A stretch of DNA of 64,000 nt from Phycisphaerae bacterium (GCA_022072445.1 JAJVHV010000030.1:5971-69970), one strand, 5' to 3'. Positions 56,276 through 64,000 are shown, numbered from the stretch's first letter. Program-made: numbers and translations. Notes: generated by a model not told the origin, from the letters alone.

Positions 56276-56671
56276 GGGCGGCGCCTACCAGAACCCCGCA
56301 CGCGAGTGCGGCGCGGCCGAACCCAACTCGCATGGTGGGTTCGGTGTACTGCCTCGGAAATATTGCGTCCTATTGGCCGGTGCGAAACGCCGTCCGCACT
56401 GGCCGGAGGCCGATGCGGACCGGCCGGAGGCCAATGCTCCCCTTCGGAATACCGCACGGCATTTCTGAGGCACTACACCAGGCCAAGGGTGCGGACCTCG
56501 AATCATCGGCGGCGAAATCGGAATACCGATACGGGCACGCGGTTTCTGCGCGCTCCGGAAGGGCTGCGGTCGCCGCCGGCGCGCAAGTCGTTGTGCCGGC
56601 TGAACGAAGCGTTCCGCATACGGCGGGTTTTTGTAATGTCGCCAGTGCAGCGGTGAGGTACACTTCCAGCA

Positions 56672-57079
56672 ATGGAAACGTCCCCCGGCATCCTGGGTCG
56701 ATTGTCCGAAAAAGTGCTCGGTTGGATCGCGCTGGGCCTGCTCGTCGCGCTGGGAATCGCCATCTGGCAGACCCCCGCCGACACCAAGCAGGCCATCTGG
56801 AGTGGCGTCTGGCGCGCCACGGCGTGGCTTGCGATCGTCGCGACGTTGCCCTGGGCCAGCCGCCTCTTCATGGGTCGCGTGCTGGAGCAATCGTCGAACT
56901 GGGCCGGGGTGGCGCTGGTCGCCGCTTACTGCCTGGCGGACGTGATCGCGGCGGTGTGCCTGATGACGGTCTGGCCGGCGAGCGGTTGGGCCTGGTTCCT
57001 GAGCGCCGTCGCGCTGGCCATCGCAGGGACGTATAATTATCTGGTTTGCGAGTATGTCGCGGAACAATCGGGCCTATGA
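56672..57079 (+). CDS. small integral membrane protein
   Basis: Four hydrophobic helices (WIALGLLVALGIAIW, WLAIVATLPW, GVALVAAYCLADVIAAVCLM, AWFLSAVALAIAG). Confidence 0.6.
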   Translation: METSPGILGRLSEKVLGWIALGLLVALGIAIWQTPADTKQAIWSGVWRATAWLAIVATLPWASRLFMGRVLEQSSNWAGVALVAAYCLADVIAAVCLMTVWPASGWAWFLSAVALAIAGTYNYLVCEYVAEQSGL

Positions 57080-57122
57080 AGCCGATCTGTGAACAATGCG
57101 GGCGGCTTTGCGGGGTCGAGCG

Positions 57123-58196
57123 ATGAGCACGAAATATCAGACCGGGCTGCGCGTCAGCGAATACGTACTGGAAGAATGCGTCGGCAGCGGCGCGTTCGCC
57201 GAGGTTTGGCGCGCCCGGCATCACATTTGGGAGTCCGAACAGGTCGCGGTGAAACTGCCGCTCCAGCCCGAATTCGCGCGCTATCTGCGGCGCGAGGGCG
57301 CGGTGGTCCACGGCGTGCGGCACGCCAACGTCGTGCGCGTCCTGGGGATCGACCCGTACGGCGAGATTCCGTATCTGGTCATGGAGCTGGTGCGCGGTCC
57401 GTCGCTCAAAAGCGTGATCGTCGAGCATCGCACCGGCGTGCCGGTCGACCTGGCGCTGCGCGTTTTCCGCGGCATCCTGACCGGGTTGGCGGCCGCGCAC
57501 GAAGCGAATGTGATTCACCGCGACATCAAGCCGGGCAACATCCTGCTCGATCTCAATGGCAAGCCGCTGTCGGAGCTGCGCAGCGAGCAGGTGAAGCTGG
57601 GCGACTTCGGCTTCGGGCTGGCCGACGTCGACGCCATGCAGTCGATCGCGCAGTCGGCGTCGATCAGCCGCTCCGACGCTCTGGTCGGAACGATCGCGTA
57701 CATGGCCCCGGAGCTGCGCGACGGGCACGCGGCAGCCGACGAGAAGTCCGACCTGTACGCCGTCGGGGTGGTGCTCTTTGAGCTGCTGACCGGCGAGCGG
57801 CCGGCCGGCGCCGAGCTGCCCAGCAGTGTCCGGCCGGCGATCAGCCCGGCGCTCGACGAGCTATTCAAGAAACTCTATGCGCGGCACGACCGCCGCTACG
57901 CCTCGGCCAACGCCGTGCTGCACGACCTGGACGCGCGGGTGCCCGCCCCCGACGGGGCGCCCGGCGCGCCGCACCTGCCGCCCTTGCCCGAGTCGGGCCG
58001 CCCGCGTTCGTCGCGGGCGAACTGGACGTGCGGCTCGTGCCATCGGCCGGCCGATCCGGCCGACCAGTTCTGCATCCACTGCGGGGCCCAACTGGTCGAG
58101 CGCGTGCGGCGTTGTCCGGGCTGCGATGGGTTTCCCGGCGTGGACGATCGATTCTGCATTTTTTGCGGCGCGTCGCTGCCGCCCGTGACCACGTGA
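57123..58196 (+). CDS. Ser/Thr protein kinase with C-terminal double Zn ribbon
   Basis: ORF 57096..58196. GSGAFAEVWRA..VAVKLP, HRDIKPGNILLD, DFG, GTIAYMAPE. C-terminus CGSC..CIHCG and CPGC..CIFCG. Confidence 0.9.
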   Translation: MSTKYQTGLRVSEYVLEECVGSGAFAEVWRARHHIWESEQVAVKLPLQPEFARYLRREGAVVHGVRHANVVRVLGIDPYGEIPYLVMELVRGPSLKSVIVEHRTGVPVDLALRVFRGILTGLAAAHEANVIHRDIKPGNILLDLNGKPLSELRSEQVKLGDFGFGLADVDAMQSIAQSASISRSDALVGTIAYMAPELRDGHAAADEKSDLYAVGVVLFELLTGERPAGAELPSSVRPAISPALDELFKKLYARHDRRYASANAVLHDLDARVPAPDGAPGAPHLPPLPESGRPRSSRANWTCGSCHRPADPADQFCIHCGAQLVERVRRCPGCDGFPGVDDRFCIFCGASLPPVTT

Positions 58197-58207
58197 GGTG
58201 ACGCGCG

Positions 58208-58504
58208 ATGCACGGCCAAGGCGTCATTGTCCTCTGGGTTTTCGGCCTGCTGTTCGTCGGCGTCATCGGCATCGCCATGCTGGTGCTTGTCGCCGTTCTG
58301 CGCGCCGGCGGCAGGATTTTCCGGCACGTCGGTTTGGCCATGGGCGAGACCGGCGGCCGCGGGTCGGCCCCCTCGGGTGCCGCGGGCCGGCCGCGCTTCT
58401 GCACGCGGCGCGGCTGCCTGCATCCCAACCGCGGCGCGGCCCGCTTCTGCGCCCGCTGTGGTCAGGCGCTCGGCGGCGGGTACGATACGGAACTGTATGG
58501 ATGA
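58208..58504 (+). CDS. small TM protein with cytoplasmic Zn ribbon
   Basis: VIVLWVFGLLFVGVIGIAMLVLVAVL helix, then CTRRGCLHPNRGAARFCARCG. The 3' end overlaps the next gene by 8 nt. Confidence 0.6.
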   Translation: MHGQGVIVLWVFGLLFVGVIGIAMLVLVAVLRAGGRIFRHVGLAMGETGGRGSAPSGAAGRPRFCTRRGCLHPNRGAARFCARCGQALGGGYDTELYG

Positions 58505-59969
58505 GATCGCGCGACAGCGGCAGTTTGAGGAGCAGTTCCTCCAGCAGATCCGCGCCAAGGCCGCCGGCCTGACGCGCGGCACCCTGCCCGCCGACCGCGT
58601 CGTCGTCGAAAAGGTGCCCGACGGCATCGACGGCGTGCGGGCCACGCTGAGCCGCCTGGAGGTCTTCGATCACGAGCTGCTGCACCGCATGCCGGGCACG
58701 CAGGCCTGCCAGCTCAAGTTCACACGCTCGATGCTCGGCGGCCTGATGGAGCGGACCGTCTCGCGGCTGCGGGCCGTCGTGCTCGCGCCGGTCGCCGCGC
58801 TGGCCACCGGTCAGGCGCCCGGACCGGTGACCCGCGAGGACGTGCTCAACGCGCTGGCTCGCTACGACCTGATGCCGCGCGGCATGAGACCCACCGGCGT
58901 GGTCTTCGCCGCGCCCACCGGCTTCAGCGACAGCGCCCGCTCGCTGGTGAACGGGCCCGGTTCGCCTACGGTGATTCTGATGGGCGGCCGGGCCGACGGC
59001 GGCTGGGACGTGAGCATGTCCGATGCGGTCGCGAAGAGTCCCTGGGGCAAGCTCTTCGAGCTCGAAACGCAGGACGAGCTGGTCAAGCGCCTCGCGCATC
59101 ATCTCGACGAGTCCGCCGACCTCGTCGATTCTCGCGGACTGTCGATCGAGGAGCTGAGCGAGAAACTCGGCGTGGACCGCGACAAGACCGAGACCCTGGT
59201 GCGCAAACTGGCCCGCACCGACCCGCGCATCATGACCGTCGCCCACGACGGCCGAACGCACGTGTGCCGTACACCCTTCGCCGAGGAGGGCTCTTCCATG
59301 AGTCTCTGGAGCCGAGTTCGCAGACTGCTGCGGCTGAAGCCGACCGTCGCCGAGCAGGTGCGCGAGATGACCGCGCAGCGCGTCAAGCTGGAGCAGCAGC
59401 GCTTCGAGATCGACCGCGCGGTCAACAAGCTCCAGGACGAAGAGGTGCGCATCGTCAAGAGCGGGGCCGCCGCCACCACCGACGTCGAAAAACGCCAGCT
59501 TGCCAGCAAGCTCGTGCGCCTGCGGCGCGACCTGGGCCGGCAAAAGGCCCAGGCCGACGTGCTCACCAAACAGATCGACATCATCGGCACGCACCTGCAC
59601 CATCTGACGCTGGCCGAGCGCGGGCGCCGCATGGAACTGCCCAAGGCCGAGGAGCTGACGCGCGAGGCGGCCCAGGCCGAACAGGTCATGGCCGATCTCT
59701 CGGCCAACGCCGAACTGGCCGTGGGCATCGAAGTTGGCGGCGGGGCGCAGGCCGTGTCGGATGAGGAAGCGGCGATCCTCGAAGAATTCGCGGCGGCGGC
59801 GGGGACGACGCCGGTGAAGGAAACGCCCGCGGCGGCGCCGGCGGCGGGCGAATCGGGACGGGTGGCGGATGCCGGCCGGTCAGGCCCGGTCCGCGCACCC
59901 AGCGCAGCGCCGCCGGTGCCTGGTGCGGCGGCGTCGAAGCGTGAGTCGGCGAAGCCGGAGATGGGGTAG
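58497..59969 (+). CDS. fusion protein: unknown N-terminal domain + wHTH-like segment + C-terminal ESCRT-III/Snf7-like coiled coil
   Basis: ORF 58227..59969; start ATG 58497 (MDEIARQRQFEE). C-terminal half SLWSRVRRLLRLKPTVAEQVREMTAQRVKLEQQRFEIDRAVNKLQDEE..LVRLRRDLGRQKAQADVL is paralogous to 60721..61326. Confidence 0.65.
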   Translation: MDEIARQRQFEEQFLQQIRAKAAGLTRGTLPADRVVVEKVPDGIDGVRATLSRLEVFDHELLHRMPGTQACQLKFTRSMLGGLMERTVSRLRAVVLAPVAALATGQAPGPVTREDVLNALARYDLMPRGMRPTGVVFAAPTGFSDSARSLVNGPGSPTVILMGGRADGGWDVSMSDAVAKSPWGKLFELETQDELVKRLAHHLDESADLVDSRGLSIEELSEKLGVDRDKTETLVRKLARTDPRIMTVAHDGRTHVCRTPFAEEGSSMSLWSRVRRLLRLKPTVAEQVREMTAQRVKLEQQRFEIDRAVNKLQDEEVRIVKSGAAATTDVEKRQLASKLVRLRRDLGRQKAQADVLTKQIDIIGTHLHHLTLAERGRRMELPKAEELTREAAQAEQVMADLSANAELAVGIEVGGGAQAVSDEEAAILEEFAAAAGTTPVKETPAAAPAAGESGRVADAGRSGPVRAPSAAPPVPGAAASKRESAKPEMG

Positions 59970-59985
59970 AGGGTTTGCAGAGGCG

Positions 59986-60351
59986 ATGGACATGGCAAGT
60001 GCGCTGCCCACAGAGCTGCTGTTGCGTAAGCCCGTCGGCGAAGAAACTCTGCGTGAGCTTGTTCGCCGCATCGCCCAGCTTCGTAGCGACGCTTGCATCA
60101 TTCTGTTTGGGTCGCGGGCGCGCGGGGACGCACGGCCGGGGAGCGATCTTGATCTGATGGTTATCACGCAGGCGGATCGGAGTCCGCTGGCGATCGCGGG
60201 CGATCTCTACGCGGCACTGGCGGACCGTGATTTCGGGTTAGATATCGTCGTCATGCCGCGCGACCGCGTGCGGCGGGCACGAGACGGGTTCGATCCTTTT
60301 CTGAACGAGGTGCTCGCACAAGGCAGAGTCCTGCATGGCCGACTGCATTGA
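59986..60351 (+). CDS. minimal nucleotidyltransferase (MNT/MntA-type antitoxin), pair 1
   Basis: ORF 59869..60351; start ATG 59986. ILFGSRARGDARPGSDLDLMV (GSxxxGxxxxxSDxDL). Confidence 0.85.
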   Translation: MDMASALPTELLLRKPVGEETLRELVRRIAQLRSDACIILFGSRARGDARPGSDLDLMVITQADRSPLAIAGDLYAALADRDFGLDIVVMPRDRVRRARDGFDPFLNEVLAQGRVLHGRLH

Positions 60352-60724
60352 CTTTGAAGACTGGCTGGCCAAAGCGGAGGGAGATCGAGAAGGCGCCATG
60401 CTGCTGATGCGCGAATTCAGCAAATCTATCGCCGGCCTGATTGCCTTTTTGTGTCAGCAGTCGGTGGAGAAGTACCTCAAGGCGCTCCTGGTGCGTCAAC
60501 GAGTCTCTTTTCCTCGTACGCATGACCTGGCGGCGCTTGCGGCAGGCAGCTATCCGGACATCGCTCGAATTCAGCCATCGCTCGCGCGACTTCAGCCGTA
60601 TGCGGTTAATGTGCGATACCCTGGATTTGATCCGGAGCGCCCCGAATGCGAAGAGGCGATCGGCCATCTGGAACGAGTCCGGTCACATTGCCGCGAGCTG
60701 CTCGAATTGGGTGAGTGCGAATGA
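60335..60724 (+). CDS. HEPN-domain protein (HepT-type toxin), pair 1
   Basis: Overlaps the MNT gene by 17 nt. QQSVEKYLKALL..FPRTHDLAAL..AVNVRYP HEPN pattern. Confidence 0.85.
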   Translation: MADCIDFEDWLAKAEGDREGAMLLMREFSKSIAGLIAFLCQQSVEKYLKALLVRQRVSFPRTHDLAALAAGSYPDIARIQPSLARLQPYAVNVRYPGFDPERPECEEAIGHLERVRSHCRELLELGECE

Positions 60725-61326
60725 ACTTCTTCACCTGGCTGACGACCAAACGCAAGACGCTCGCGACGATGAGCGCCGCCGAGCTGCGCGCCCAGGAGAT
60801 GATGCTCGAGAACGAGCGCGACCGCATGCTGAAGCGCATGGAGAAGCTGGCCGGCGAGAAGCACCAGGTGATCGAGCGCGGCGCGAAGGAACGCACGCCC
60901 GAGCTGCGTAAGACCTACGCGCAGCAGTTCGACCTGCTGCACACCGAGCAGATGATGCTCAGCCGGCACCTGAACATCCGCAGCAAGGAGCTGCTGACCG
61001 TCTCGCGGCTGCGCATGCTGCGCGAGACGGCCCAGCGGGCCGGCACCGGCATGGGTGCGTTCGGCACGATTCGCGAAAAGGATCTGGCGGTGATCGAGGC
61101 CCTGATCGAGAACGACAAGGTCACCACCGACATGTACCAGGAGCGGCTCGACGCGATCCTGCAGATCGGCGCGGCGGCGGACGAGGAGGCGACCGGCCTT
61201 TCGGCGGCGGCGGGCGAGCTGCTCAAGGTCTGGAACGACATGGACGCCGGGCTGATCTCCAACACGGCCGAAGCGTTCGACGAGGCGGAGAAGCGGGTGC
61301 GTGAGAGAAACAGAGCAGCGGAGTAG
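60721..61326 (+). CDS. ESCRT-III/Snf7-like coiled-coil protein (paralogue 2)
   Basis: ORF 60715..61326. ATG 60721 forms an ATGA overlap with the HEPN stop. The ~200-aa helical protein has a basic N-terminus, long heptad hairpin pattern and acidic C-terminal part. The family call is by eye only. Confidence 0.55.
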   Translation: MNFFTWLTTKRKTLATMSAAELRAQEMMLENERDRMLKRMEKLAGEKHQVIERGAKERTPELRKTYAQQFDLLHTEQMMLSRHLNIRSKELLTVSRLRMLRETAQRAGTGMGAFGTIREKDLAVIEALIENDKVTTDMYQERLDAILQIGAAADEEATGLSAAAGELLKVWNDMDAGLISNTAEAFDEAEKRVRERNRAAE

Positions 61327-61332
61327 CCTCAT

Positions 61333-61701
61333 ATGCAACGACGCCCGAACCAGCGCGAAAACCGCGAGGCGCTCCGCGGCCCGATTGACAATCGCGTCAT
61401 TGGACAAATCGTAGACCGCTTGTCCAAGCGGTTGCCGGACTGCTGCATTGTGCTTTTCGGCTCCCGGGCCTACGGAACGCCGACCAGCCAGAGTGACGTT
61501 GATCTGCTGGTGGTGGCCCCGTCGCAACGTGACCCGTACGTGCTCTGCGGCGAACTACATCGCGAACTCAGTCCACGGGATTTCTCCGTTGATCTACTGG
61601 TCATGACGCCCGAGACTTTTCGTCAGCGCCGCTCACGGTTTGATCCGTTTTTTGCAGAACTCACCTCAAAGGGCCGCGTCCTGCATGGTCATCTCCCCTG
61701 A
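61333..61701 (+). CDS. minimal nucleotidyltransferase (MNT), pair 2
   Basis: VLFGSRAYGTPTSQSDVDLLVV. Paralogous to pair 1 through the C-terminal KGRVLHG. Confidence 0.85.
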   Translation: MQRRPNQRENREALRGPIDNRVIGQIVDRLSKRLPDCCIVLFGSRAYGTPTSQSDVDLLVVAPSQRDPYVLCGELHRELSPRDFSVDLLVMTPETFRQRRSRFDPFFAELTSKGRVLHGHLP

Positions 61702-62071
61702 TGCGGCGGAATGGGTCGATCGCGCCGAAGGGGACGTGCGCGCGCTTCGGAAGCTCGACCCAGTCGAGGATCGTGTCGTCGTGGCGTTTCTCGCTCAGCA
61801 GGCCGCGGAGAAGTACCTGAAGGCCACTCTGGTCAACAGCCGGATATGCTTTCCAAAACCACACGACTTGGTCGCGCTCGTCTCCCTGTGTCGGCAGATC
61901 AGTGATGAATTCGAGTCGTTGGTGGGCGCTGCCGCCGTGTTGCAGCCCTTTGCGGTGGACGTGCGATATCCCGGACCCGCCCCCGGAGAGGCCGCCGTGC
62001 GGGCGGCGATTGAGAATATGGACGTGATCCGAACCTTTTGCCGCGAGAGGCTTGCGCTGCAAGCGCCCTGA
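61685..62071 (+). CDS. HEPN-domain protein, pair 2
   Basis: ORF 61640..62071; start ATG 61685 gives a 17-nt overlap with the MNT gene. QQAAEKYLKATL..FPKPHDLVAL..AVDVRYP. Confidence 0.85.
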   Translation: MVISPDAAEWVDRAEGDVRALRKLDPVEDRVVVAFLAQQAAEKYLKATLVNSRICFPKPHDLVALVSLCRQISDEFESLVGAAAVLQPFAVDVRYPGPAPGEAAVRAAIENMDVIRTFCRERLALQAP

Positions 62072-62095
62072 ACGGCGATCACGCGGAGATGTACG

Positions 62096-62713
62096 ATGGC
62101 CCTATTCAAGTCAAAAGAAGAGCGCCGCATCGAGCAGGACATCAAGATCCGCCAGGGCATCCGCCGGATCGAGAAGTCCATCAGCGAGCAGAGCAAGTTC
62201 ACCGACGAGTTCGTGAAGAACGCCCGGCATGCGAAACAGATCGGCGACAACGGGCAGTATGTCTTCATCCGCAACTCGCTCAAGAAGACCGCCACCATCA
62301 AGAAGCTGCTCGAACGGCAGCTTCTGAGCGTCAAAAACGCGCTGCTGATCAAACGCCAGGCCGAGGCCTCGGCCGATTTCGCCAACGCCATGAGCCTGAT
62401 GGCCCGCGAAGTGGGCAAGCTCTACGGCGACACCGATCTCGTGAAGACGCAGACCGACTGGGAGAAGGCGCTGCTGCAGAGCCAGACGATGGAGGAGCGC
62501 ATGCAGATGTTCCTCGATTCGATCGAAAGCGGCGCCGCGGCCGACATCGCCGCCTCGCCGACGGCCGCCGAAGCGATCAGCGACGACGAGATCGACCGCA
62601 TGATCGCGGTTGAGGAGCAGGTGGAGAAGGCGAAGGAGACGCAGCAGATGTCGGCGCTGCGGGCGGAGCTGGCGGAGCTGAAGGGGGAGAGTAAGGATAA
62701 GGAGACGAAGTGA
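62096..62713 (+). CDS. ESCRT-III/Snf7-like coiled-coil protein (paralogue 3)
   Basis: GGAG 8 nt upstream of the ATG. MALFKSKEERRIEQDIKIRQGIRRIEKSI.., FANAMSLMAREVGKL, acidic ISDDEIDRMIAVEE, terminal amphipathic helix LRAELAELK. By eye it aligns along its length with CHMP2/Vps2-type proteins. Confidence 0.6.
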   Translation: MALFKSKEERRIEQDIKIRQGIRRIEKSISEQSKFTDEFVKNARHAKQIGDNGQYVFIRNSLKKTATIKKLLERQLLSVKNALLIKRQAEASADFANAMSLMAREVGKLYGDTDLVKTQTDWEKALLQSQTMEERMQMFLDSIESGAAADIAASPTAAEAISDDEIDRMIAVEEQVEKAKETQQMSALRAELAELKGESKDKETK

Positions 62714-62850
62714 GGGCGGGCGTCTCCATGACTCAGGGACAGCTTGAATCGTGGGATGTCGTCCGCGGGCAGGTCCCGATTCTGGAACCAGATGAAGAAA
62801 GAGGACAAGTACAACGCGATTCATGAGCCGGATGACGACACGCCAGACGA

Positions 62851-63549
62851 GTGAGAGCATTGCCGATTAAGCCGCAGAAGTGGTTAGAGATGCTTGCTGA
62901 GGACTTGGTGCGCGACATCACGTCCAACCACTCGTTGCGCAGGTACACGACAAACGCGGATCTGCTTGGGGCGTGGGCTGAAGCGTGCGTACGAAACCTG
63001 ATTGCTCGCATGGTTCATCCGCTGCGAGTCTCACGCGGTGCGATCGTTTACGAAGGCATTTGCCCGGACGAAGTCCCAGAGCTGGATGCCATCGTGTGGA
63101 CCGCCGCACCCGTGCCGGCGGTCTTCGATCTTGGCGACTTTGCAATAGTACCGCGCGGCTCGGCCGTTGCTTTTCTTGAAGTCAAGCGAAGCGCGTACAC
63201 CGGCGTAAGCGACCGGATGCGCAAGACGCTCAACGGTACTGAGTGTCTCATCACACATTGCGAGCAAGAAAAGGGAACGCGCTTGGACGGAGAGGCTCTG
63301 GGTGTCGTCTGCATGAAGAGAGAGGACCAGAAACTCGACCGCACACTCCAAAGGCTCATGGACGACCAGAAGGCTGTTCTGCTCCTTGAGGAGAAGAATG
63401 GGTCCTGGAGGGCCATGGCGAGGGACGTACTTCGGCTTGTGAACTTTCTCGCGGCGGTGCGGGTCCGTGCGTTCGTCCTTGCATCCCAGCTCGGCGTAAA
63501 CACCGAGATTCTGGCTCCGGTACTAGGTAGCGACGGGACAGCGTCATGA
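62851..63549 (+). CDS. PD-(D/E)xK nuclease-fold-like protein of unknown function
   Basis: GTG start (alternative ATG 62890). VPELDAIVW ... AVAFLEVKRS gives a D...E-x-K arrangement. The stop forms an ATGA overlap with the MNT pair 3 start. Confidence 0.5.
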   Translation: MRALPIKPQKWLEMLAEDLVRDITSNHSLRRYTTNADLLGAWAEACVRNLIARMVHPLRVSRGAIVYEGICPDEVPELDAIVWTAAPVPAVFDLGDFAIVPRGSAVAFLEVKRSAYTGVSDRMRKTLNGTECLITHCEQEKGTRLDGEALGVVCMKREDQKLDRTLQRLMDDQKAVLLLEEKNGSWRAMARDVLRLVNFLAAVRVRAFVLASQLGVNTEILAPVLGSDGTAS

Positions 63550-63887
63550 TCGGTATCTGCACGCCCGTTCGAGTCACCGACGAACGGATCGCCGAAGTCG
63601 TGCGCCGCCTGGTCGAGGCGTTGCATCCGCAGCGCATCTACCTCTTCGGCTCGCATGCCTACGGAACGCCTCACGCGGACAGCGACGTCGACCTCCTTGT
63701 GCTGGTTGATGACGCCGAGCTGACGCAGGACGATCATGACCAGCGCGGCTATCGCTCTCTGCGCGGGATGTTTCTACCCATCGAGCTGCACATTCGAGGT
63801 CGGCAGGCGTTCGAACGGCGCGCGGTCGCTCCTCACAGTTTCGAGAACGAGATCCTGCGAAAGGGCAAGCTGCTCTATGCCGCGTGA
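63546..63887 (+). CDS. minimal nucleotidyltransferase (MNT), pair 3
   Basis: YLFGSHAYGTPHADSDVDLLVLV. Confidence 0.85.
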   Translation: MIGICTPVRVTDERIAEVVRRLVEALHPQRIYLFGSHAYGTPHADSDVDLLVLVDDAELTQDDHDQRGYRSLRGMFLPIELHIRGRQAFERRAVAPHSFENEILRKGKLLYAA

Positions 63888-64000
63888 TCCCGCTCTCATA
63901 CGCGAGTGGCTGCAGAAGGCCCGAAACGACCTCGAGACCGCGCGGCGCGCGATGGCCGAGAAGCCCATTCTCGATACCGGGTGCTTTCATTGCCAGCAGG
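63877..64000 (+). CDS. HEPN-domain protein, pair 3 (5' part, truncated by the window end)
   Basis: ATG 63877 lies inside the MNT 3' end. MPRDPALIREWLQKARNDLETARRAM matches the N-termini of HEPN 1 and 2 (..DWLAKAEGD.., ..EWVDRAEGD..). Confidence 0.7.
   Translation, partial: MPRDPALIREWLQKARNDLETARRAMAEKPILDTGCFHCQQ

What the first reader, a model, noticed from the sequence alone, without database searches (positions are those of the whole stretch)
62851..64000. PD-(D/E)xK-like protein translationally coupled to a third MNT-HEPN pair
The 232-aa product has a restriction-endonuclease-like arrangement: ..VPELDAIVW.., about 30 aa, then ..AFLEVKRS (D ... E-x-K). From memory this resembles the S-x-Q-x-D-i-i-i / E-V-K pattern of DUF6602-type proteins. 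Its stop overlaps the MNT3 start (ATGA at 63546-63549), and HEPN3 follows with an 11-nt overlap. A nuclease-fold gene fused into a HEPN-MNT operon suggests a three-component toxin or defence variant. The window ends inside HEPN3, so downstream partners are unknown.
Basis: partly seen in the sequence, partly recalled or inferred. Interest (0 to 1): 0.5.

Follow-up and report, generated by a model that had tools for sequence, protein, structure and literature searches.

The report
Solitary NucC-like nuclease beside MNT-HEPN pair
The gene encodes a real restriction-enzyme-like (NucC-like, DUF6602-related) nuclease, but it looks like a free-standing, probably anti-phage gene that landed next to a resident MNT-HEPN toxin-antitoxin-like pair, not part of a new three-part system.

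Summary

The three-component interpretation is not supported. None of 12 genomic contexts of family members has an MNT or HEPN gene nearby. MNT3-HEPN3 orthologues sit at the same spot, just upstream of an AAA+ ATPase gene in a conserved Phycisphaerae operon, in at least seven related metagenome loci. None of those loci carries the nuclease; upstream they have nothing or an unrelated AbiEii-like gene.

The position between g205 and MNT3 is a variable cargo slot. Tight gene packing is the rule throughout this operon, so the overlap says little about partnership.

Most likely this is a divergent member of the DUF6602 family, of which a single-gene member (Damona) has reported anti-phage activity. 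It is co-transcribed with an independent MNT-HEPN module. I rate it a new member of a known kind, of modest interest.

The parts
62714..62850 (.). 137-nt spacer between g205 and the nuclease gene (176 nt if the nuclease starts at ATG 62890). It is the only sizeable intergenic gap between g98 and the AAA+ gene and is probably the upstream edge of the inserted cargo.
   Evidence: Intergenic distances. No similarity to the g205-downstream spacers of related loci. No sigma-70-like promoter or flanking repeat found.
62851..63549 (+). DUF6602-related, NucC-like PD-(D/E)xK nuclease gene (232 aa from GTG 62851; alternative starts TTG 62860 and ATG 62890). Predicted catalytic residues are E44 (62980-62982), D79 (63085-63087), E110 (63178-63180) and K112 (63184-63186). 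The last ~12 residues (221-232) score below pLDDT 50, and in alignment A1 the tail is not conserved from about residue 215 onwards; this tail runs into the MNT3 start.
63546..63887 (+). MNT3, a minimal nucleotidyltransferase (113 aa) with GSHAYGTPHADSDVD (GS-x10-DxD). Its start overlaps the nuclease stop (ATGA).
   Evidence: Pfam NTP_transf_2 3.2e-10 and Polbeta 1e-9. NCBIfam MntA_antitoxin 39 bits, below the cut-off of 60. Motif. Orthologues at 46-51% identity in the same slot in L017, L018, L019, L023, L025, L026, L032 and L036.
63877..64000 (+). HEPN3, 5' part. The full gene is 141 aa and would end at window-equivalent 64302 (L001 7429-7854). It overlaps MNT3 by 11 nt and is followed 2 nt later by the AAA+ ATPase gene. 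The canonical Arg of the R-x4-6-H motif is missing (WHEVVTPKVH).
   Evidence: Pfam HEPN 8.9e-6 for the 41-aa fragment and 9e-26 for the full protein. Alignment with orthologues and with HEPN1/2. Junction distances.
62096..62713 (+). g205, the upstream anchor of the slot. It is a highly conserved 205-aa helical protein of a core Phycisphaerae operon and is context, not part of the module.
   Evidence: More than 1800 homologues, the listed ones at about 76-88% identity; every named source is Phycisphaerae or Planctomycetes. Synteny in metagenome loci.

Best explanation
Gene 62851-63549 encodes a free-standing Mg2+-dependent PD-(D/E)xK DNA endonuclease. It belongs to a small, sporadically distributed family that is a divergent branch of DUF6602 and whose fold is closest to the CBASS/type III CRISPR effector NucC. 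Its most likely role is stand-alone anti-phage or anti-mobile-element defence, like the single-gene DUF6602 system Damona.

In this Phycisphaerae genome the gene occupies a variable cargo slot of a conserved operon, between g205 and a resident MNT3-HEPN3 module that sits immediately upstream of an AAA+ ATPase gene. It is co-transcribed with MNT3-HEPN3, and probably translationally coupled to it, simply because genes in this operon are packed end to end. The nuclease and the MNT-HEPN pair are independent modules.

Shown here: the fold, the conserved catalytic residues, family membership at family level, the solitary occurrence of relatives, the conserved position of MNT3-HEPN3 without the nuclease, and the variability of the slot.

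Inferred, not shown: nuclease activity, the defence role, insertion as the historical event, and independence of function.
For: Fold and active site:
- Foldseek places 11 NucC chains (three species, plus one Serratia entry) above everything else, with full-length alignments.
- E44, D79 and K112 are invariant and E110 is at least 90% conserved in 98 relatives, and they lie on the expected helix and strands.

Family:
- 79 of 98 relatives hit PF20247 DUF6602, best 2.9e-11.
- Damona, a single-gene DUF6602 protein with PD_DExK and CBASS-endonuclease similarity, is reported as an anti-phage system often found in prophages (bioRxiv 10.1101/2024.07.02.601686).
- I see the same weak PADLOC matches, PD_DExK and NucC.

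Solitary, mobile-like distribution:
- Relatives are about 200-260-aa single-domain proteins.
- The family is rare: 12 close homologues in 5.8 billion proteins and 1 hit in 185,579 species genomes.
- In 12 contexts they sit between unrelated genes. These include a prophage-like region (L014, next to a 969-aa ORF that I read as a phage tail tape-measure and an ORF that I read as RhuM-like, both from sequence and not tested) and an IS91/integrase/reverse-transcriptase/IS110 region (L100).
- None of the 12 has MNT or HEPN.

Slot:
- MNT3-HEPN3 orthologues (46-51% and 39-49% identity) abut the AAA+ gene in L018, L019, L023, L025, L026 and L036 and are present in L032, where the contig ends before the AAA+ gene. 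L017 keeps only the MNT gene.
- Upstream of them is nothing (78-bp gap in L017/L018) or an unrelated AbiEii-like nucleotidyltransferase family.
- Other loci carry DUF3800, DUF5615/PIN or PIN_3 genes in the slot, or no insert at all.
- GC of the nuclease and MNT/HEPN genes is 0.57-0.64, against 0.66-0.74 for most of the core genes.
Against: - The window protein itself does not match the DUF6602 HMM at E<=1. The link is transitive, through relatives.
- No biochemical or phenotypic data exist for this subfamily. The Damona evidence comes from one preprint, on a distant Vibrio protein that I did not align directly.
- No mobile-element hallmarks (repeats, integrase) flank the gene here, so insertion is inferred only from comparison with related loci.
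- How a solitary nuclease would avoid cutting host DNA is unexplained.
- Twelve contexts is a small sample of a family with about 445 clusters, and several of those contigs are short.
- The 4-nt overlap with MNT3 is compatible with functional coupling and cannot exclude it.
Confidence: 0.65

Rival explanations
1. True three-component module. The nuclease is a second toxin or effector controlled by MNT3 (for example by nucleotidylylation, as MntA does to HepT) and/or works together with HEPN3.
For: ATGA stop/start overlap and an 11-nt overlap give a compact nuclease-MNT3-HEPN3 block preceded by the only sizeable gap in the operon. HEPN3 lacks the canonical catalytic Arg, so another effector could in principle have taken over the toxic role.
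Against: 0 of 12 family contexts have MNT or HEPN. MNT3-HEPN3 orthologues occur in at least 7 loci without the nuclease. Tight or overlapping junctions are general in this operon, including junctions between clearly unrelated genes such as HEPN1->g201 (-4) and HEPN3->AAA (+2). The nuclease C-terminal tail that creates the overlap is unconserved and its last 12 residues have low model confidence.
Confidence: 0.08
2. Signal-gated NucC-like effector. The protein is activated by a cyclic oligonucleotide, as NucC is by cA3. The signal would be made elsewhere in the genome (CBASS or type III CRISPR) or, more speculatively, by the neighbouring minimal nucleotidyltransferase.
For: NucC is the best structural match by both methods, over the full length and at similar size, 232 versus ~240 aa. 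There is a weak PADLOC NucC HMM hit across the catalytic motif region.
Against: No CD-NTase or Cas10 was seen next to any of 12 family members. The PADLOC NucC hit is not significant (E 0.072). Sequence identity to NucC is 13-18% and TM-scores are only 0.39-0.49. The cA3 pocket and gate loop could not be assessed. A 113-aa MNT has no known cyclase activity (established knowledge of the Pol-beta minimal NTases).
Confidence: 0.1
3. Not defence. A selfish or housekeeping nuclease, for example a free-standing homing-type endonuclease that promotes its own insertion, a type IV (modification-dependent) restriction enzyme, or a DNA repair/recombination nuclease.
For: Distribution is sporadic and single-gene, between unrelated housekeeping genes and without accompanying mobility genes (L098, L099, L095). 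No methyltransferase partner appears in any context. The structural neighbours are mostly type II restriction enzymes.
Against: No target-site duplication or repeats at the insertion. The only experimental hint for DUF6602 proteins is anti-phage activity. A type IV restriction enzyme would still count as defence.
Confidence: 0.12
4. Inactive remnant: a decaying cargo gene with no current function.
For: It is the only occurrence in 80 related operon loci. It is divergent enough to miss the Pfam model.
Against: The reading frame is intact over the full family length, and all invariant and nearly invariant family residues are retained. The structure is predicted with reasonable confidence.
Confidence: 0.05

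Closest known systems
DUF6602 (Pfam PF20247) proteins, including the single-gene anti-phage system Damona from the Vibrio cholerae chromosomal integron
   Same: The homologous region runs from the Glu-bearing helix through the D...E-x-K strands; relatives align to profile positions 7-96 of 104. Both are single-domain, stand-alone proteins. Both give weak matches to Cas PD_DExK and to NucC/CBASS small endonuclease models. Both occur in prophage-like or mobile contexts (L014, L100).
   Different: The window protein does not reach the Pfam model at all, and only 2 of 10 close homologues reach the gathering score. This branch is found mainly in Planctomycetota-type metagenome contigs. No phenotype has been tested. 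Here the gene sits inside a conserved operon rather than an integron cassette or prophage.
NucC, the cA3-activated endonuclease of CBASS and type III CRISPR systems (PDB 6p7p, 6q1h, 7zgv/7zgw, 6uxg)
   Different: 13-18% identity and TM-score about 0.39-0.49. No CD-NTase or Cas10 partner here or next to any relative. The cyclic-trinucleotide pocket and hexamer assembly were not assessed.
Type II restriction endonucleases of the EcoRI/NgoMIV-like class (BbvCI, NgoMIV, PspGI, Kpn2I, AgeI, SgrAI, EcoRII-C)
   Different: No cognate methyltransferase in any of the 12 contexts. Much smaller, with no recognisable DNA-recognition elaborations. Identity is 8-13%.
MNT-HEPN modules / type VII HepT-MntA toxin-antitoxin systems (applies to MNT3-HEPN3, not to the nuclease)
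   Same: Minimal nucleotidyltransferase with GS-x10-DxD, encoded first and overlapping a HEPN-domain gene.
   Different: The HEPN domain is of the PF05168 type, not DUF86. MNT3 scores 39 bits against a cut-off of 60 for the NCBIfam MntA model. HEPN3 lacks the Arg of the R-x4-6-H motif. The pair is retained at a fixed position in a conserved operon across a clade rather than being sporadic.

Membership tests
PD-(D/E)xK (restriction endonuclease-like) superfamily | Alpha-beta-beta-beta-alpha-beta core fold | tested here: met
PD-(D/E)xK (restriction endonuclease-like) superfamily | Catalytic Asp on beta-2 and (D/E)-x-K on beta-3, usually with an acidic residue on the preceding helix, conserved in the family | tested here: met
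   D79 lies on strand 77-83, E110-V-K112 on strand 105-112 and E44 on helix 36-54. E44, D79 and K112 are invariant and E110 is at least 90% conserved in 98 relatives.
PD-(D/E)xK (restriction endonuclease-like) superfamily | Metal-dependent nuclease activity | not testable with these tools
   Needs purified protein and E44A/D79A/K112A mutants.
DUF6602 (PF20247) | Match to the Pfam HMM at or above the gathering score (27 bits) | tested here: not met
   The window protein gives no hit at E<=1. Close homologues P0010 (28.8 bits) and P0005 (27.0 bits) reach it; four others score 19.5-24.5 bits.
DUF6602 (PF20247) | Homology to DUF6602 members shown through intermediate sequences | tested here: met
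   The profile of the window protein's family retrieves 445 clusters. 79 of 98 full-length members hit PF20247 at E<=0.01, best 2.9e-11.
Damona (single-gene DUF6602 anti-phage system) | Single-gene system without conserved partners | tested here: met
   12 contexts of family members share no common neighbour.
Damona (single-gene DUF6602 anti-phage system) | Protection against phage | not testable with these tools
   Reported only for the Vibrio protein in the preprint.
NucC (CBASS / type III CRISPR effector) | Match to a NucC sequence model | tested here: not met
   PADLOC NucC E 0.072, 10.8 bits, covering only residues 75-119.
NucC (CBASS / type III CRISPR effector) | Genomic association with a CD-NTase or a type III CRISPR locus | tested here: not met
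   None in L001 or in the 12 contexts of relatives. MNT3 is a 113-aa minimal NTase, not a CD-NTase.
NucC (CBASS / type III CRISPR effector) | cA3-binding pocket on a trimer and signal-induced hexamer | not tested
   Would need multimer modelling or biochemistry.
Three-component toxin-antitoxin/defence module (nuclease + MNT + HEPN) | Recurrent co-occurrence of the three genes in unrelated genomes | tested here: not met
   0 of 12 nuclease-family contexts have MNT/HEPN. 0 of 80 g205-anchored loci have the nuclease, including at least 7 with an MNT3-HEPN3 pair.
Type VII HepT-MntA toxin-antitoxin (for MNT3-HEPN3) | MntA-type nucleotidyltransferase with GS-x10-DxD, encoded upstream of and overlapping the HEPN gene | tested here: met
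   GSHAYGTPHADSDVD motif and 11-nt overlap. However, the NCBIfam MntA model scores 39 bits, below the cut-off of 60.
Type VII HepT-MntA toxin-antitoxin (for MNT3-HEPN3) | HEPN toxin with a catalytic R-x4-6-H motif | tested here: not met
   HEPN3 has WHEVVTPKVH: the His is conserved and the Arg is absent. HEPN1 (RVSFPRTH) and HEPN2 (RICFPKPH) keep the motif. Some HEPN3 orthologues have an Arg one position earlier.

The most novel reading that the evidence does not exclude
The NucC-like nuclease is functionally wired to its neighbours. MNT3, a minimal nucleotidyltransferase, would modify the nuclease or make a nucleotide signal for it, and an Arg-less HEPN3 would act as sensor or regulator. That would be a previously undescribed three-part defence module. 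It would also be embedded in, and possibly guarding, a conserved Phycisphaerae membrane-remodelling-like operon whose intergenic slots collect such cargo.
Probability: 0.07. Interest if true: 0.65.

Novelty: new member of a known kind. Interest (0 to 1): 0.3.

Why it matters
For the finding itself the value is mostly clarification. It places a small uncharacterised family (about 445 clusters at 50% identity) firmly in the PD-(D/E)xK superfamily. It links the family to DUF6602/Damona and identifies NucC as its closest solved structure, which gives concrete residues to mutate: E44, D79, E110 and K112. It also shows that a stop/start overlap with a toxin-antitoxin-like pair is not evidence of a composite system when the surrounding operon is tightly packed throughout.

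If the nuclease is confirmed as a stand-alone defence gene, it would extend Damona-like systems to Planctomycetota. The wider context may be more interesting than the gene. A core operon conserved across Phycisphaerae tolerates, and repeatedly acquires, toxin-antitoxin and defence-like genes in its intergenic slots.

Tried and rejected
- Direct family scans of the 232-aa protein gave nothing usable. Pfam had no hit, NCBIfam only noise, and PADLOC only weak hits.
- A sequence search against PDB chains gave only a spurious E 1.6 hit.
- tblastn against 50,697 phage records and 72,556 plasmid records found no match.
- A scan of IMG/VR viral contigs with the family alignment found no relative.
- The GTDB species-genome scan found only one locus, L014, too few for statistics.
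- A search for flanking direct or inverted repeats, promoter-like sites and terminator-like sites around the nuclease found nothing above chance.
- The g205-nuclease spacer has no similarity to the spacers of related loci.
- I considered that the three MNT-HEPN pairs were recent tandem duplicates and rejected it. They are only 29-42% (MNT) and 33-39% (HEPN) identical.
- I considered calling the downstream ATPase Vps4. By sequence it is closest to Cdc48/p97 D2 domains, no MIT domain was detected, and only the Vps4_C helix matches, so I call it a classic-clade AAA+ ATPase.
- The ESCRT-III-like reading of g205 stays suggestive. The profile-versus-PDB sequence search was negative, and Foldseek hits to CdvB/CHMP/Vipp1 have E 0.06-1.
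- The AFDB50 fold library was unavailable.

Full report
**Observation**

ORF 62851..63549 (+, 232 aa, GTG start) is present as described. Reading the sequence, D79 is encoded at 63085-63087 within VPELDAIVW, and E110-V-K112 at 63178-63186 within AFLEVKRS. The TGA stop overlaps the MNT3 ATG (ATGA, 63546-63549). MNT3 (63546..63887) overlaps HEPN3 (from 63877) by 11 nt.

MNT3 matches Pfam NTP_transf_2 (3.2e-10) and carries GS-x10-DxD. The HEPN3 fragment matches Pfam HEPN.

A public contig, L001, is 100% identical to window 56449-64000 and extends 2.9 kb further. It shows the full 141-aa HEPN3 (HEPN 9e-26). An AAA+ ATPase gene follows 2 nt later.

The start codon of the nuclease gene is uncertain. 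The candidates are GTG 62851, TTG 62860 and ATG 62890. The family profile and the predicted N-terminal helix favour one of the two upstream starts.

**What the protein is**

The window protein hits no Pfam or NCBIfam family. In PADLOC it gives only weak matches to PD_DExK (E 0.013) and NucC (E 0.072).

It has 12 homologues in the 5.8-billion-protein set. A profile of these finds 445 cluster representatives at E<=1e-3, and 124 at E<=1e-30. Nearly all are 200-260-aa single-domain proteins.

In an alignment of 98 of them (mean column identity 19%), the only invariant residues are G40, E44, G63, D79 and K112. E110 is at least 90% conserved.

An AlphaFold model (pLDDT 74.7, pTM 0.75) puts E44 on a helix, D79 on the following long strand and E110/K112 on the next strand.

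The structure searches agree:
- Foldseek independently ranks 11 NucC chains first (E 1.4e-4 to 1.2e-3, probability 1.00, alignments 222-256 columns), well ahead of anything else.

The PD-(D/E)xK reading is therefore confirmed, and the closest solved structure is NucC.

**DUF6602**

6 of 12 close homologues hit PF20247. Two of them (P0010 at 28.8 bits, P0005 at 27.0 bits) reach the 27-bit gathering score. 79 of 98 wider relatives hit it at E<=0.01, best 2.9e-11. The window protein itself misses the model, so it is a divergent relative rather than a scorable member.

The only paper in the library that mentions DUF6602 describes Damona. This is a single-gene anti-phage cassette from the Vibrio cholerae chromosomal integron whose DUF6602 domain also matches Cas PD_DExK and a CBASS small endonuclease. 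Its homologues are often found in prophages (bioRxiv 10.1101/2024.07.02.601686).

**Is it a three-component system?**

I looked at the question from both sides.

(a) Contexts of nuclease-family members. I examined twelve independent places: L002, L003, L004, L005-L010 (the same protein on several contigs, counted as one place), L011/L012, L013, one JGI contig without DNA, L014, L095-L097, L098, L099 and L100.
- None has a gene with a nucleotidyltransferase or HEPN Pfam label nearby. Where Pfam labels were on record they came; L014 was judged from its ORF list and tblastn only.
- tblastn with all six MNT/HEPN proteins against the eleven of these places for which DNA was held finds only noise.
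- Neighbours are unrelated to each other: tRNA synthetase, acyl-CoA dehydrogenase, a SnoaL-like protein and DUF6398.
- L014 (a Phycisphaerae MAG) lies after a 969-aa ORF that I read as a phage tail tape-measure and before an ORF that I read as RhuM-like. Both readings are from the sequence and were not tested.
- L100 lies amid IS91, integrase, reverse transcriptase and IS110 genes.

(b) Contexts of MNT3-HEPN3. The upstream gene g205 is highly conserved: more than 1800 homologues, the listed ones at about 76-88% identity, and every named source is Phycisphaerae or Planctomycetes. I used it to fetch 80 metagenome loci.
- tblastn with all operon proteins shows a conserved order: g135, Ser/Thr kinase, g98, g490, g201, g205, AAA+ ATPase, g356.
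- MNT3-HEPN3 orthologues (46-51% and 39-49% identity, against 29-30% and 33-39% to the window's own pairs 1 and 2) lie directly upstream of the AAA+ gene in L018, L019, L023, L025, L026 and L036. They are also present in L032, where the contig ends before the AAA+ gene. L017 keeps only the MNT gene.
- A different MNT-HEPN pair occupies the slot in L033.
- The slot has no MNT-HEPN in L020, L030, L031, L037, L041, L043, L045, L049, L050, L052 and L054.
- The nuclease is in none of the 80 loci.

Between g205 and MNT3 the content varies:
- a 78-bp gap in L017 and L018;
- a 173-bp gap in L026;
- an unrelated ~180-226-aa family with weak AbiEii/NTP_transf_5 similarity in L023, L025 and L036, apparently in fragments in L019, and in the same slot in L020, L029 and L045.

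Other occupants of the g205-AAA slot are DUF3800 (L033), DUF5615/PIN-like (L037) and PIN_3 (L044).

The pair MNT3-HEPN3 is therefore a long-term resident at a fixed position, and the place just upstream of it is a variable cargo slot. In this genome that slot holds the nuclease.

**Packing**

Junctions from g98 to the AAA+ gene are -8, 22, -17, -4, 6, -17, 24, 176 (137 with the GTG start), -4, -11 and 2 nt. Overlaps therefore occur between clearly unrelated genes too. The nuclease's last ~12 residues, which create the ATGA overlap, have low model confidence, and the C-terminal tail is not conserved in the alignment of close homologues.

The only sizeable gap lies upstream of the nuclease. GC of the nuclease and MNT/HEPN genes (0.57-0.64) is lower than that of most core genes (0.66-0.74). 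This fits later acquisition. No repeats or promoter-like sites mark the boundaries, and the spacer has no counterpart in related loci.

**Mechanism proposed**

The protein is most likely a stand-alone metal-dependent DNA endonuclease with a NucC-like architecture. It probably acts in defence against phages or other mobile DNA, as reported for the DUF6602 protein Damona. It is expressed from the operon transcript together with MNT3-HEPN3 but is functionally independent of them (confidence about 0.65).

- Shown: the fold, the catalytic residues, family relations, solitary distribution and slot variability.
- Inferred: enzymatic activity, the defence role and functional independence.
- Open: how self-DNA is spared.

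Rivals:
- a real nuclease-MNT-HEPN triad (about 0.08);
- a cyclic-oligonucleotide-gated NucC-like effector (about 0.10);
- a selfish, type IV restriction or repair nuclease (about 0.12);
- an inactive remnant (about 0.05).

**MNT3-HEPN3**

The pair has the gene order and nucleotidyltransferase motif of MNT-HEPN / type VII-like modules. Three features set it apart. Its HEPN domain is PF05168-type. MNT3 is below the NCBIfam MntA cut-off (39 versus 60 bits). HEPN3 lacks the Arg of R-x4-6-H: it reads WHEVVTPKVH, whereas HEPN1 and HEPN2 read RVSFPRTH and RICFPKPH. Its ribonuclease activity is therefore doubtful.

**Verdict**

I rate it a new, divergent member of a known kind (DUF6602/Damona-like, NucC-like PD-(D/E)xK nucleases), interest about 0.3. 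The operon context is recorded separately, because it may deserve its own follow-up.

Noticed in passing
window 56672-64000 and L001 1-10413 (g135, kinase 57096-58196, g98, g490 58497-59969, g201 60721-61326, g205 62096-62713, AAA+ L001 7857-8999, g92, g356): The nuclease and the three MNT-HEPN pairs sit inside an operon conserved across Phycisphaerae: Ser/Thr kinase, three coiled-coil proteins, a single-domain AAA+ ATPase and g356. The g205 model is a long helical hairpin plus two helices. Its top Foldseek hits are ESCRT-III proteins (CdvB, CHMP2A/3, CHMP1B, Vipp1), but only at E 0.06-1. The ATPase matches Pfam Vps4_C (29 bits, cut-off 21.3) but is closest by sequence to Cdc48/p97 D2, and no MIT domain was found. 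[quoted passage not shown] From my own knowledge, and not checked for this genome, planctomycetes are described as lacking FtsZ. If both hold, an ESCRT-like system here would be notable if confirmed.
   Followed up: partly
L015-L094, slots g201->g205 and g205->AAA; window 59992-60724, 61333-62071, 62851-64000: The intergenic slots of this conserved operon repeatedly hold small toxin-antitoxin or defence-like genes that differ between relatives. Examples are MNT-HEPN pairs, an AbiEii-like nucleotidyltransferase family (7 loci), DUF3800, DUF5615/PIN, PIN_3, and a 23S_rRNA_IVP (PF05635) gene in the g201->g205 slot of L018, L019 and L025; homologous-length ORFs in L015, L017, L020 and L023 were not scanned. 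An operon interior acting as an insertion hot spot is unusual.
   Followed up: partly
window 59992-60724 (MNT1-HEPN1) and 61333-62071 (MNT2-HEPN2): Pairs 1 and 2 are 42% (MNT) and 39% (HEPN) identical to each other and keep R-x6-H. Apart from L049, which has a pair-2-like module upstream of g205, no MNT-HEPN pair was detected at these two positions in the related loci. This genome is unusual in carrying three pairs in one operon.
   Followed up: partly
window 63877-64000 / L001 7429-7854: HEPN3 lacks the canonical catalytic Arg (WHEVVTPKVH). Orthologues vary at this position: Arg one residue earlier in L018, L019, L025, L026 and L032, Gln in L023 and L036, Asn in L033. His62 and an R-Y-P motif are invariant. 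It may be a non-catalytic or differently wired HEPN.
   Followed up: partly
L011 1279-2410 and L012 98-1229: One nuclease-family member (P0006) overlaps by 8 nt a downstream DUF6398 gene (5.2e-34), followed by an 88-aa ORF. This is a different possible partner from the one in the window.
   Followed up: no
L014 1815-8224; L100 712-10648: Two family members lie in mobile contexts. L014 (Phycisphaerae MAG) sits after a 969-aa ORF that I read as a phage tail tape-measure and before an ORF that I read as RhuM-like; both readings are from the sequence and were not tested. L100 sits among IS91 and IS110 transposases, an integrase, an Imm32-like gene and a reverse transcriptase.
   Followed up: no
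L095 4513-4908, L096 142-537, L097 520-915: A 131-aa ORF with no Pfam match lies about 90 nt upstream of the closest long-contig homologue (P0280, 47% identity). It is seen on three contigs carrying the identical P0280 protein, likely one locus sampled three times. It may or may not be a partner.
   Followed up: no
L019 3401-4442: The AbiEii-like cargo gene upstream of MNT3 in L019 appears broken into several short ORFs, although the N-terminal MFFQDEGPVPETF motif is visible in the DNA. This suggests a pseudogene or an assembly frameshift.
   Followed up: no
window 58208-58504 (g98) and 57096-58196 (kinase C-terminus): The small membrane protein g98 and the C-terminus of the kinase share a short double-zinc-ribbon-like segment (32% identity over 47 aa, E 0.007; Pfam DZR weak).
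   Followed up: no
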